Positions 15,164 to 25,619 of a DNA stretch of 64,000 nucleotides are shown here, piece after piece. The notes under the pieces were generated by a model, which made no database searches, had not been told where the DNA came from, and was given only the letters and a program-made list of their open reading frames with translations. A program made the translations under genes and the position numbers. This DNA comes from the human T2T-CHM13v2.0 reference genome, Homo sapiens. The stretch is from assembly GCF_009914755.1 (NCBI RefSeq), contig NC_060930.1. One strand, 5' to 3'. Every line of letters begins with the position of its first letter. The stretch's first letter is position 1.

Positions 15164-15380
15164 GGCACCCCCTCCTCCGCCTCGCTCTTCTCACCGCCGC
15201 CGCCACGACCACGCTCTGCACTCCCGCTCCCAACGCCCCAGCCCGAGTGGCGTAGCTTGGACACTGCCGCCGCCGCCTCTCCTCCCCGCCCCCACGCCAC
15301 TCTCACGGACACGCCGCCGCCACCTCTGCCGCTGCCGCCGCCGTCGCCAGCTCTCGCGAGAGGAGATAGTTCCCGCCCCG
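15164..15380 (-). other. SEC63: SEC63 5'UTR (TSS approximate), GC-rich with GGC tracts and no upstream ATG
   Basis: No CAT on + strand between 15164 and about 15480; (GCC)n runs near 15195, 15265 and 15313-15348; TSS position inferred. Confidence 0.6.
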
Positions 15381-23675: not shown

Positions 23676-23889
23676 AGGTAGATAAATGCTAAACGAATTG
23701 CTCTTAACAGTTGTTAAGTATAGTATTACACACATATTAGTAGTTTTGCATAGATATCTTAATGTCCTGCCAAGTACCTGCATCTCCTGTCACTAAATCC
23801 CAGACGCTCAGGGGAAAAAAGGAGACAACAACCAACCAACCAAAGCTCACTGCTTGAATCTGAGTCAGGACCACAGCAGTAAAGAGCCT

Positions 23890-24348
<459 letters not shown>

Positions 24349-24667
24349 TCTCAAACTTATTTTTGACCATTATTCATAATAAATATATTTTACATTATGG
24401 CTCAGTGTGTTACTGAAAAAAATATCATGTGCAAACCACTGTGATTTTTTCTTATTCCATAAATTTATTTATATAAAATATAAATAAATGATACATATTA
24501 ACATATAAAATGCTTTATTAAATAAATAAGCAACTACAATCCAGAAATTTTCTGCAGGTGCATTGGGGAACTTGGTCATAAAATTTAGCTAAGATCACCT
24601 TAGCGTGTTCTTGAACATTCTTTGTATTATCAGGTGGAAAGCTTTTCATTTAAGAAACTCCTCTGGG

Positions 24668-24947
24668 GCAGTAGTTCTCAGATTTAGCAGCCTGACAATC
24701 ACCTGAAAGGCTTGTTAAAACACAAATTGTTAGGCCCCAAGCCAGAGTTTCTGATTCAGGCCCTCAGGGTCAAGTTTTTTTTTGTTTTTTTTTAATCAGT
24801 GTTGACCAGGTTGGCCTCGAACGTGTAGCCTCGCCTCCCCGAGTGCCAGGGCAACCGGCCTGAGCCACGGCGGCTCCCAAGTTTCATATTTCTACCAAGT
24901 TCCCAGGTGATACTCCTGCTCCTGGTCTGGAAACCACACTGCTCTAG
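24668..24947. mobile_element. MER5A-type DNA transposon interrupted by the snaR-like retrocopy
   Basis: cagtagttctca..cttgttaaaacaca..ttctgattca / caagttcccaggtgata..accacact. Confidence 0.75.
24778..24877 (-). ncRNA. snaR-family (CAS/ASR-like) Alu-monomer-derived Pol III small RNA retrocopy
   Basis: Minus strand GGAGCCGCCGTGGCTCAGGCCGGTTGCCCTGGCACTCGGGGAGGCGAGGCTACACGTTCGAGGCCAACCTGGTCAACACTGATT + A-tail; A box TGGCTCAGGCCGG; B box GTTCGAGGC; TSD caagttt at 24771-24777 and 24878-24884. Confidence 0.75.
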
Positions 24948-25619
24948 GGAATCATTTCTGTGAATCAAATAATCCTTTGCACAGTGAATAATCACTTCCT
25001 AACTTATTTGTTGGTCATATGTCAAGTTCACCGAAACAAAGTATATTGCACTGGCTGGATATGTGTGAATGTAATTTTTTTGAATGTACATGAGGTCAAA
25101 AGTGAGGACTTCAAGGAGGCAGCCTGCTTCCTGGTTCCTTCCTCCAAGCTATTCTGGTGCTCCTTTTCAGAACTATTTAATCATTCATTCATTCATTTAT
25201 TTAAATATTGAGACTATGTGCCAAGAGCCATGCTAAGTTCTAGAATACAGTCAGCCTGAGCATTTGAAAAGAAAACATTGCCCTTAAGAAAGCTGTAGAA
25301 TCATGCTGAGACCATTTTTGTCCTTTTAAAACCATTTAGTTTTTGGTAGTGAGGATCAGGTGCTCTTCCAGAGACAGGAAGATGACAAAAGCAGGCAACT
25401 GCTGGCGAGTTTTCAGGCTACTAATCCACTGGTCTTTGAAAACGGTATTTCCCAAGCCTCCCTGTGAGAAGGAGCAGAGCACCTGGGTGGTTGATAAATG
25501 ACAGCTGTCAGGCCGTTGGTAATCCTGATGCACCGAGCTGGGTATGAGGCCTGGTAGTTATGGTTTTAGCAAGTACTTCAGATAAGTCTTACCAAAAGAG
25601 TGTGGGAAACACTGTTTTA

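What the first reader, a model, noticed from the sequence alone, without database searches (positions are those of the whole stretch)
24717..24884. Intact-looking snaR-family (CAS/ASR-like) Pol III small-RNA retrogene hidden in a MER5A, about 9.5 kb upstream of SEC63
Seen: an 84-nt GC-rich body (24794-24877, minus strand) plus A-tail, flanked by a 7-bp TSD, with 7 undecayed CpGs, a good A box (TGGCTCAGGCCGG) and B box (GTTCGAGGC) about 33 nt apart, and a first T4 run at 24717-24720 that predicts a ~160-nt transcript. It is not a standard Alu: the 5' GGAGCC..GTGGCTCAGGCCGGTTGC and 3' GTTCGAGGCC.CCTGGTC.ACA match my recollection of snaR (small NF90-associated RNA). Established: snaR arose from an Alu left monomer via the ASR and CAS intermediates in catarrhines. 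Inference: a young L1-mobilised copy, possibly still transcribed, in the same orientation as SEC63, and likely mis-annotated as a FLAM fragment.
Basis: partly seen in the sequence, partly recalled or inferred. Interest (0 to 1): 0.8.

Follow-up and report, generated by a model that had tools for sequence, protein, structure and literature searches.

The report
Well-preserved CAS retroelement upstream of SEC63
This is one copy of CAS, a small Alu-derived mobile element already described as the ancestor of the snaR RNA genes; it is unusually well preserved, but nothing here shows that it is active.

Summary
At window 24794-24878 (minus strand) lies an 85-nt, 67% G+C element with 7 CpGs. It is followed by a 19-nt A-tail and flanked by a 6-7 bp target-site duplication, inside an old interspersed repeat about 9.5 kb upstream of SEC63. 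It is not an ordinary Alu monomer, not ASR and not a snaR gene. It meets every testable defining feature of CAS ('catarrhine ancestor of snaR', Parrott et al. 2010, PMC3045588):
- about 85 nt long
- both deletions relative to Alu left monomers
- neither of the two 8-nt snaR expansions
- A box at +11-22 and B box at +57-65
- A-tail, duplication and dispersed paralogues (40 matches in the same genome)

In a tree it sits at zero branch length at the base of the younger CAS clade, from which snaR-A emerges. It keeps all consensus CpGs, against 66 of 128 in 19 sister copies, and is one of 4 of 40 copies with both promoter boxes exact.

The family is published, with 24 human copies. I could not open the supplement to see whether this locus is listed. 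Transcription is untested: two published Pol III site lists show nothing here, and the RNA lacks the snaR hairpin signal. This is a known kind of low to moderate interest.

The parts
24794..24878 (-). CAS element body, 85 nt (+1 = 24878)
   Evidence: Read. G+C 0.671 with 7 CpG. Rfam snaR-A 42.4 bits, E 2.2e-8, over the whole model with two 8-nt gaps. Full-length paralogues at 80-98% identity. Zero-length branch in the young CAS clade.
24857..24868 (-). Putative Pol III A box, +11 to +22
   Evidence: Position counted. It matches the +11-22 that PMC3045588 section 16 gives for CAS. The exact 12-mer survives in 19 of 40 family copies.
24814..24822 (-). Putative Pol III B box, +57 to +65
   Evidence: Single match in the window. 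It matches the +57-65 that PMC3045588 section 16 gives. The 10-mer that includes the next C survives in 16 of 40 copies.
24775..24793 (-). A-tail (A9 C A9)
   Evidence: Most paralogues carry an A-rich tail at the same place.
24878..24884 (-). Upstream copy of the target-site duplication AAACTT(G). The last G (24878) is shared with the first base of the body.
   Evidence: 7-nt exact repeat found by script.
24771..24777 (-). Downstream copy of the target-site duplication
24717..24720 (-). First T4 run downstream, the predicted Pol III stop at about 162 nt. It lies in a conserved part of the host repeat.
   Evidence: T-run table. One search shows the same TGTGTTTTAAC stretch in most paralogous host-repeat copies.
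24885..24950 (-). 5' part of the host interspersed repeat (MER5A by recall; no tool named it)
   Evidence: 12 of 14 paralogous copies align at 50% identity or more (27-42 matches of 45-66 aligned bases) directly upstream of the 3' part, with no insert. It has 0 CpG.
24655..24770 (-). 3' part of the host interspersed repeat
   Evidence: 40 matches scored of 211 candidates in the same genome at 75-90% identity. 74-81 of 111-115 aligned bases are identical in 14 of 14 copies.

Best explanation
The element is a retrotransposed copy of CAS ('catarrhine ancestor of snaR'). CAS is a low-copy, roughly 85-nt descendant of the Alu left monomer, formed from FLAM C by deletion delta1 (giving ASR) and then deletion delta2. 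A Pol III transcript of a source CAS was most likely reverse-transcribed and inserted by the L1 machinery into an old DNA-transposon relic. That insertion left an A-tail and a 6-7 bp duplication that begins A-rich. This copy belongs to the younger CAS subfamily, the one that snaR genes grew out of, and its sequence equals that subfamily's inferred ancestor. Its complete CpG set and exact A and B boxes are best explained by its being among the last CAS insertions in the human lineage. Protection or function is not needed to explain them. If Pol III still used it, transcription would start near 24878 and run through the A-tail into the host repeat to the T4 at 24720-24717. That would give an RNA of about 160 nt with a CAS head and a unique tail. 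Identity and mode of insertion are shown here. The L1 dependence, the relative age and any transcription are inferred.
For: 1. snaR kinship without the snaR expansions. Rfam snaR-A aligns end to end (model 1-115) at 42.4 bits, E 2.2e-8. Exactly two 8-nt gaps fall at model 30+33-39 and 59+64-70, on either side of the central loop. This is the epsilon1/epsilon2 pattern that PMC3045588 section 16 describes.

2. Both deletions. Against 10 of 10 Alu left monomers from the same window, the element and 5 sister copies show a 19-column gap after GGGAGG. They also show a 16-column gap after CAACAYTGA. The ASR-type copies L024 and L026 fill the second gap. 6 of 40 family copies keep that 3' segment.

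3. Length and box positions equal the paper's figures: about 85 nt, A box +11-22, B box +57-65 (PMC3045588 section 16).

4. Not an ordinary Alu.
- An Alu left monomer finds 66 places in the window at E<=1e-8, and none overlaps the element.
- The element's best match to any Alu in the window is 78% over 46 nt (35.6 bits), against 98% over 85 nt (145 bits) to a CAS paralogue.
- There is no Metazoa_SRP match at E<=10, while the neighbouring Alu monomers score 30-61 bits.

5. A dispersed family. 40 matches were scored of 52 candidates on 19 chromosomes. 29 of 40 have an exact direct repeat of 6 nt or more at the ends, a few of them low-complexity. The clear duplications start A-rich.

6. Tree. Alu monomers are separated at 100/100. 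ASR-type copies lie next to them, then older CAS including the chr19 copy L057. Then comes a young CAS clade of 22 rows (support 95/87) holding the window copy at branch length 0. snaR-A plus L023 (chr21) and L029 (chr7) are nested in that clade at 99/95.

7. A single insertion. Flanks match other genome places only over the CAS part, query 64-177 of 291. The host repeat is uninterrupted in 12 of 14 paralogous copies.

8. Preservation.
- It keeps 6 of 6 leave-one-out consensus CpGs, or 7 of 7 by its own count.
- The 19 other young copies keep 66 of 128.
- Its 2 non-CpG differences both fall at sites where the family itself is split.
- Both boxes are exact in only 4 of 40 copies: L001, L002, L003 and L056.
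Against: - I could not confirm that this locus is among the 24 published human CAS. The supplementary data set is a .doc and the figures a .pdf, and neither can be read here. 'Hs6', 'chromosome 6' (outside the reference list) and 'SEC63' do not occur in the main text.
- No primate genome was on hand, so catarrhine restriction and the age of this insertion are untested.
- The family copies were found with the window copy as query, and the 'young' set was picked by similarity to it. That biases the consensus and the zero branch length towards it. The leave-one-out consensus removes only part of this bias.
- All-CpG retention is unlikely at the family average: P about 0.01, with 0.19 such copies expected among 20. 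So youth is an inference and protection from methylation is not excluded.
- The tree rests on 85 columns for 49 rows. 21 of 46 inner branches are unresolved, and the bootstrap had not settled.
Confidence: 0.9

Rival explanations
1. It is a live Pol III transcription unit. TFIIIC binds the intact A and B boxes, and Pol III makes an RNA of about 160 nt (CAS head, A-rich linker, unique tail from the host repeat). Occupancy keeps the CpGs unmethylated and so undecayed.
For: - Both boxes are exact and at the published positions. Only 4 of 40 copies keep both.
- All consensus CpGs are kept, against 66 of 128 in 19 sister copies, P about 0.01 at the family average.
- A T4 run lies at a usable distance.
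- The surroundings are CpG-poor (observed/expected 0.16-0.31) and the host-repeat flanks have 0 CpG. The retention is therefore local to the element.
- Alu left monomers that drive transcripts into unique downstream sequence are documented (PMC4333407, passages seen).
Against: - The supplementary tables of the H1/iPSC Pol III and TFIIIC study have no entry at chr6:108.x Mb (hg18): 0 occurrences of four search strings in 2 files.
- The supplementary file of the THP-1 study has no occurrence of SEC63, FLAM or the expected coordinates.
- Both are weak negatives. The coordinates were converted from memory, the lists come from few cell types, and the files may be cut.
- The four copies most like the window copy keep 22 of 26 CpGs (arithmetic). 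At that rate 7 of 7 is unremarkable, about 0.3, so youth suffices.
- The predicted RNA folds no better than shuffles: z +0.26 for the body and -0.53 with the trailer. The snaR-A control gives z -2.61.
- The main text of PMC3045588 has no statement on CAS transcripts: 0 occurrences of three phrasings.
- No RefSeq functional element overlaps the site (hub table).
Confidence: 0.12
2. It is just a fragment of an ordinary free left Alu monomer (FLAM) or an internally deleted Alu, with no special relation to snaR.
For: The lineage does descend from FLAM C (PMC3045588 section 17). Pieces of the element still align to Alus at 76-87% over 23-46 nt.
Against: - The same two deletions and the same diagnostic bases recur in more than 30 dispersed full-length copies, each with its own duplication.
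- A search of the window with an Alu left monomer finds 66 Alus but not this element.
- Rfam matches snaR-A and not SRP/Alu.
- In the tree, Alu monomers are split off at 100/100.
Confidence: 0.02
3. It is an unannotated snaR gene or a CAS-to-snaR intermediate such as snaR-21 or the chromosome 7 element.
For: It aligns to the whole snaR-A model and sits in the clade that contains snaR-A.
Against: - It scores 42.4 bits. The 54 snaR matches scored in this genome reach 93.7-143 bits.
- It has neither expansion.
- It lacks the substitutions that L023 (chr21), L029 (chr7) and snaR-A share, for example at columns 8-10, 56-57 and 80. Those three form their own branch at 99/95, away from it.
- It has no snaR duplicon flanks.
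- It has no hairpin signal.
Confidence: 0.02

Closest known systems
CAS, catarrhine ancestor of snaR (Parrott et al., Nucleic Acids Res 2010/2011, PMC3045588; Parrott and Mathews 2011, PMC3337139)
   Same: - Body of about 85 nt.
- Deletions delta1 and delta2.
- No epsilon1 or epsilon2.
- A box +11-22 and B box +57-65.
- A-tail and target-site duplication.
- Intergenic and scattered in low copy number.
   Different: Nothing tested differs. It is the least diverged copy found in this genome. Whether it is one of the 24 listed human copies could not be checked.
snaR-A (Rfam RF02556), the NF90-associated Pol III RNA
   Same: Shared 5' and 3' sequence blocks, B box and central loop. The alignment is collinear over the whole model.
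   Different: - About 16 nt shorter, lacking two 8-nt expansions.
- 42.4 bits against 94-143 for snaR genes.
- Spread by retroposition, not by duplicon.
- No terminator of its own.
- No significant hairpin: z +0.26 against -2.61.
ASR, the Alu/snaR-related element
   Same: Shares delta1 and most of the body.
   Different: - ASR-type copies (L024, L026, L056, L058, L061, L064) keep about 15-18 more nt before the A-tail.
- They carry older diagnostic bases.
- They lie next to the Alu monomers in the tree.
snaR-21 and the chromosome 7 CAS/snaR intermediates (PMC3045588 section 16). L023 and L029 are probably these, judged by chromosome only.
   Same: Same length class, no expansions, and flanked by duplications.
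   Different: They carry snaR-type substitutions and branch with snaR-A at 99/95. The window copy does not.
BC200 and the Ya5-lm units (PMC4333407): a left-monomer promoter driving a transcript into unique downstream sequence
   Same: Same predicted architecture: a monomer head with A and B boxes, an A-rich stretch, a unique tail and a downstream T-run.
   Different: Those are shown to be expressed. For this locus nothing is shown.

Membership tests
CAS | Body of about 85 nt excluding the 3' A/T tract | tested here: met
   85 nt, 24878-24794.
CAS | Internal deletion delta1 of 17-19 nt relative to FLAM C or the Alu left monomer | tested here: met
   19-column gap against 10 of 10 Alu left monomers from the window. 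Window Alus stood in for the FLAM C consensus, which was not on hand.
CAS | 3' deletion delta2 of about 13 nt relative to ASR | tested here: met
   16-column gap against Alu monomers. It is filled in the ASR-type copies L024 and L026. The A-tail begins 6 nt after the CAACA motif here, against 21-24 nt in L024, L056, L061 and L064.
CAS | Absence of the snaR expansions epsilon1 and epsilon2 (8 nt each) | tested here: met
   Two 8-nt gaps against the snaR-A model, at positions 30+33-39 and 59+64-70.
CAS | A box at +11-22 and B box at +57-65 | tested here: met
   24868-24857 and 24822-24814 with +1 at 24878. Only the positions were tested, not promoter function.
CAS | Hallmarks of retroposition: A-rich tail and flanking short direct repeats | tested here: met
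   A9CA9 tail and a 7-nt exact repeat. The site is uninterrupted in 12 of 14 paralogous host repeats.
CAS | Low-copy dispersed family, over 20 per genome | tested here: met
   40 matches were scored. By my reading they are 32 with the delta2-type end, 6 ASR-type and 2 truncated.
CAS | Restricted to catarrhines, with the human copy shared with another primate | not testable with these tools
   No primate genome is held. The statement comes from PMC3045588 sections 16 and 18.
snaR | Score over the Rfam gathering cut-off (98 bits) | tested here: not met
   42.4 bits. The 54 snaR matches scored in the same genome reach 93.7-143 bits.
snaR | Both internal expansions present | tested here: not met
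snaR | Extended, thermodynamically stable hairpin | tested here: not met
   z +0.26, with 114 of 200 shuffles folding as well. The snaR-A control gives z -2.61, with 1 of 200.
snaR | Conserved duplicon flanks, spread by segmental duplication | tested here: not met
   The flanks match other loci only over the CAS part.
snaR | Pol III transcript that binds NF90 | not testable with these tools
   No expression or binding data on hand.
ASR | Retains the ~13 nt 3' segment (no delta2) | tested here: not met
FLAM / Alu left monomer | Collinear alignment to the left monomer without the lineage-specific deletions | tested here: not met
   Not found by an Alu left-monomer search, where none of the 66 hits overlaps it. 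Its best Alu match is 78% over 46 nt. No SRP/Alu Rfam match.

The most novel reading that the evidence does not exclude
This is the best-preserved CAS copy in the human genome: sequence equal to the subfamily ancestor, all CpGs kept, both boxes exact. It may be still occupied by TFIIIC and Pol III. It would then produce a CAS-headed RNA of about 160 nt with a unique tail from the host repeat, a BC200-like architecture 9.5 kb upstream of SEC63. That occupancy, rather than youth, would be what has shielded its CpGs from methylation decay.
Probability: 0.12. Interest if true: 0.45.

Novelty: already known. Interest (0 to 1): 0.22.

Why it matters
CAS elements record the step between Alu and the snaR genes. 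snaR is a hominine-specific Pol III RNA family tied to NF90, testis, placenta and cancer. Knowing that this locus is a canonical CAS, and not a new gene, settles the finding. The modest added value is that this copy equals the inferred ancestor of the CAS subfamily that gave rise to snaR and keeps an intact promoter. That makes it the natural human locus for asking whether CAS elements are still transcribed, and a handy natural stand-in for the ancestral CAS sequence. If it were active, it would add one more Alu-derived Pol III RNA with a unique tail. That would interest specialists but would surprise few.

Tried and rejected
- Supplement of PMC3045588 (lists and coordinates of human CAS): only an index page can be read. 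The .doc and .pdf cannot. Whether the locus is already listed stays open.
- Main-text search for 'Hs6', 'chromosome 6', 'SEC63' and 'MER5': nothing relevant.
- Literature: 'catarrhine ancestor of snaR' occurs in 2 papers and 'snaR-related' in 4. A snaR+SEC63 search was swamped by SNARE papers and told nothing.
- Pol III occupancy lists: PMC3896398 supplements have 0 occurrences of SEC63 or of any chr6:108.x coordinate. The PMC9151912 supplement has 0 occurrences. The main text of the 2025 atlas preprint PMC12424700 has no mention of the locus, and bioRxiv supplements are closed. The coordinates in older assemblies were converted from memory, so these are weak negatives.
- snaR-like structure: rejected for this copy.
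- This copy as a source for other copies (3' transduction): no other CAS locus carries its trailer, since matches end in the A-tail at query 177 or earlier of 291. That gives no evidence either way, because SINE copies rarely carry flanks.
- Host-repeat continuity by blastn alone: only 2 of 19 paralogues showed the 5' flank. A MAFFT alignment of 14 non-redundant copies resolved it. Five near-identical duplicates of L074 were dropped.
- Bacterial-type promoter and terminator scan: irrelevant here.
- The repeat name MER5A is recalled, not given by any tool. The window file carries no soft-masking.

Full report
**What is there.** Read on the minus strand, the window holds these parts in order:
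- An 85-nt body at 24878-24794, with G+C 0.671 and 7 CpG.
- A 19-nt A-tail (A9CA9) at 24793-24775.
- The same 7 letters, AAACTTG, immediately before the body (24884-24878) and immediately after the tail (24777-24771).

The first G of the body and the last G of the repeat are the same base. The body is therefore 85 or 84 nt, and the duplication 6 or 7 bp. In 28 of the 30 paralogues printed that position is G, so I count it with the body.

The only T4 run downstream is at 24720-24717, position 159-162 from 24878. A TTT lies just before it at 24726-24724. SEC63's first exon ends at 15362 on the same strand (hub table), 9.4-9.5 kb away.

**Kinship with snaR, but not a snaR gene.** Rfam's snaR-A model aligns over its whole length (1-115) at 42.4 bits, E 2.2e-8, far below the gathering score of 98. 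The alignment is collinear except for two 8-nt gaps, at model 30+33-39 and 59+64-70. They lie symmetrically on either side of the central loop.

In the same genome, the 54 snaR matches that were scored reach 93.7-143 bits. Of these, 52 are over the cut-off and all 52 lie on chromosome 19. Parrott et al. (PMC3045588, sections 15-18 and 24 read) describe exactly this difference. snaR genes arose from CAS elements by two 8-nt internal expansions, epsilon1 and epsilon2, between the A and B boxes.

**Not an ordinary Alu monomer.**
- A 135-nt Alu left monomer from the window finds 66 places in the window at E<=1e-8, and none overlaps the element.
- The element's best match to any Alu in the window is 78% over 46 nt, 35.6 bits, and is split in two pieces. 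Its match to a paralogue on chromosome 22 is 98% over 85 nt, 145 bits.
- Rfam gives the neighbouring Alu monomers 30-61 bits to the SRP model and gives the element none at E<=10.

**The defining deletions.** I aligned the element and five sister copies with 10 Alu left monomers from the window, five weaker family copies and one snaR-A.
- All family copies share a 19-column gap after GGGAGG (delta1).
- The element and its sisters have a further 16-column gap just before the A-tail (delta2).
- L024 and L026 fill that second gap, so they are ASR-type.
- Over all 40 family matches I read 6 ASR-type copies (L024, L026, L056, L058, L061, L064), 2 truncated copies (L021, L030) and 32 with the short CAS-type end.

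With +1 at 24878, the A-box stretch lies at +11-22 and the B-box stretch at +57-65. These are the positions the paper gives for CAS, whose length it states as about 85 nt (section 16).

**A dispersed retroposed family.** The 87-nt query gave 40 scored matches of 52 candidates on 19 chromosomes at 80-98% identity, nearly all full length. A script found exact direct repeats of 6 nt or more at the ends of 29 of 40. A few of these are only A-runs. The clear ones are 8-18 nt and begin A-rich. By established knowledge of L1 endonuclease target sites (recalled, not tested), that fits L1-mediated insertion. The paper reports duplications at more than 69% of human CAS (section 18).

**The host.** The 3' flank is an old interspersed repeat, with 40 matches scored of 211 candidates at 75-90% identity. 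I aligned 14 non-redundant paralogous copies and left out five near-identical duplicates of L074.
- 12 of 14 also match the window's 5' flank (27-42 identities of 45-66 aligned bases), directly adjoining the 3' part.
- Only 0-5 of the 100 insert columns are filled in any copy.
- L070 and L083 do not match the 5' flank.

So the element plus its tail is one insertion into one repeat. The T4 run belongs to a conserved stretch of that host repeat. Outside the CAS part the locus has no other match in the genome, which excludes arrival by segmental duplication.

**Place in the lineage.** A maximum-likelihood tree of 38 full-length family copies, one snaR-A and 10 Alu left monomers reproduces the published series. 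It uses 85 columns, 21 of 46 inner branches are unresolved, and the bootstrap had not fully settled.
- The Alu monomers split off at 100/100.
- ASR-type copies lie next to them.
- Older CAS follow, among them the chromosome 19 copy L057.
- A clade of 22 rows (95/87) follows, holding the window copy at branch length 0.
- Inside that clade, snaR-A groups with L023 (chromosome 21) and L029 (chromosome 7) at 99/95.

The last two are probably the paper's snaR-21 and chromosome 7 intermediates, judged by chromosome only. The window copy lacks their snaR-type substitutions. It is a canonical CAS of the younger subfamily.

**How well preserved, and what that means.**
- Against a consensus built without it, the window copy keeps 6 of 6 CpG sites. 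The count is 7 of 7 if the split site at column 9-10 is included.
- It differs at 2 of 73 other positions. Both are sites where the family itself is divided: T6/G6/C5/A2 and T11/C8.
- The 19 other young copies keep 66 of 128 CpGs and differ at 63 of 1359 other positions.
- At the family average, keeping all seven has P about 0.01, and 0.19 such copies are expected among 20.
- Only 4 of 40 copies keep both boxes letter for letter: L001, L002, L003 and L056.

Two cautions apply.
- The copies were found and ranked with the window copy as query, which favours it.
- The family is not of one age. The four copies most like the window copy together keep 22 of 26 CpGs (arithmetic), and at that rate seven of seven is ordinary.

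The surroundings are CpG-poor, with observed/expected 0.16-0.31 and 0 CpG in the host flanks. The locus is therefore not in an unmethylated island. I conclude that it is most likely one of the last CAS insertions. The paper says that every human CAS has an orthologue in chimpanzee, orangutan or macaque, and that insertion has slowed or stopped in African apes (section 18; PMC3337139 section 5). 'Young' is therefore relative.

**Activity.** Nothing here shows transcription.
- The body folds no better than shuffles: -32.1 kcal/mol, z +0.26, with 114 of 200 shuffles as good.
- The same holds for the 162-nt predicted transcript, z -0.53.
- The snaR-A control folds into its long hairpin with z -2.61, matched by 1 of 200 shuffles. 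The structure that NF90 binds in snaR is thus not predicted for this RNA.
- The supplementary tables of a Pol III/TFIIIC ChIP-seq study in embryonic stem cells list bound FLAM elements elsewhere. They list none at chr6:108.x Mb.
- The supplementary file of the THP-1 study has no matching entry.
- The main text of the 2025 Pol III atlas preprint does not mention the locus.
- These are weak negatives, for three reasons: few cell types were covered, I converted the coordinates from memory, and the stored files may be cut.
- The main text of PMC3045588 holds no statement on CAS transcripts under three phrasings.
- Alu left monomers that drive Pol III into unique downstream sequence do exist (PMC4333407, passages). 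The architecture is therefore plausible, and I give it about one chance in eight.

**Novelty.** The kind is published. It appears under its full name in 2 papers of the library, and 24 human copies are shown in Figure 8 of PMC3045588 (legend read). Whether this particular locus is among them could not be checked, because the supplement cannot be read here. A genome-wide BLAT search would hardly have missed the most consensus-like copy. I therefore file the finding as already known, with low to moderate interest.

Noticed in passing
L003 (G000:C12:100305922-100306006), L059 (G000:C6:33044123-33044205), L030 (G000:C3:65751051-65751108): Three CAS copies are flanked by exact direct repeats of 9-14 nt (script values 12, 10 and 9; by eye 13 and 14 for L003 and L030) yet have no A-tail at all. 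L003 and L030 sit inside Alus, and L030 is also cut off after 58 nt. Tail-less copies flanked by duplications do not fit simple L1 target-primed insertion. The paper mentions one tail-less CAS inside a HERV, but I did not check whether any of these is that one.
   Followed up: no
G000:C19:50.74-50.95 Mb and 53.09-53.23 Mb: Of the 54 candidates scored, 52 matches to the snaR-A model lie over the Rfam cut-off in two arrays on chromosome 19 of this assembly. That is a lower bound. The older counts are 21 snaR genes in the table seen, and 14 snaR-A genes plus a few other subsets in Table 1 of PMC3045588, seen in part.
   Followed up: no
G000:C19:56095154-56095236 (L057): An older-type CAS copy lies directly followed by an Alu on chromosome 19. 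This fits the paper's description of the CAS in the tandem 1.9-kb repeats of the snaR parent locus. In the tree it branches below the young CAS clade.
   Followed up: partly
family copies, columns 9 and 81 of the alignment: The young CAS subfamily is itself split at two sites (C/T/G before GTGG, and C/T in CAACAYTG). This suggests at least two source lineages. The window copy carries C at both sites.
   Followed up: no
window 23886-24354: The repeat block just downstream of the element gives three SRP/Alu-monomer matches in a row on the minus strand (24243-24349, 24078-24224, 23904-24051). That makes one and a half Alus rather than one.
   Followed up: no
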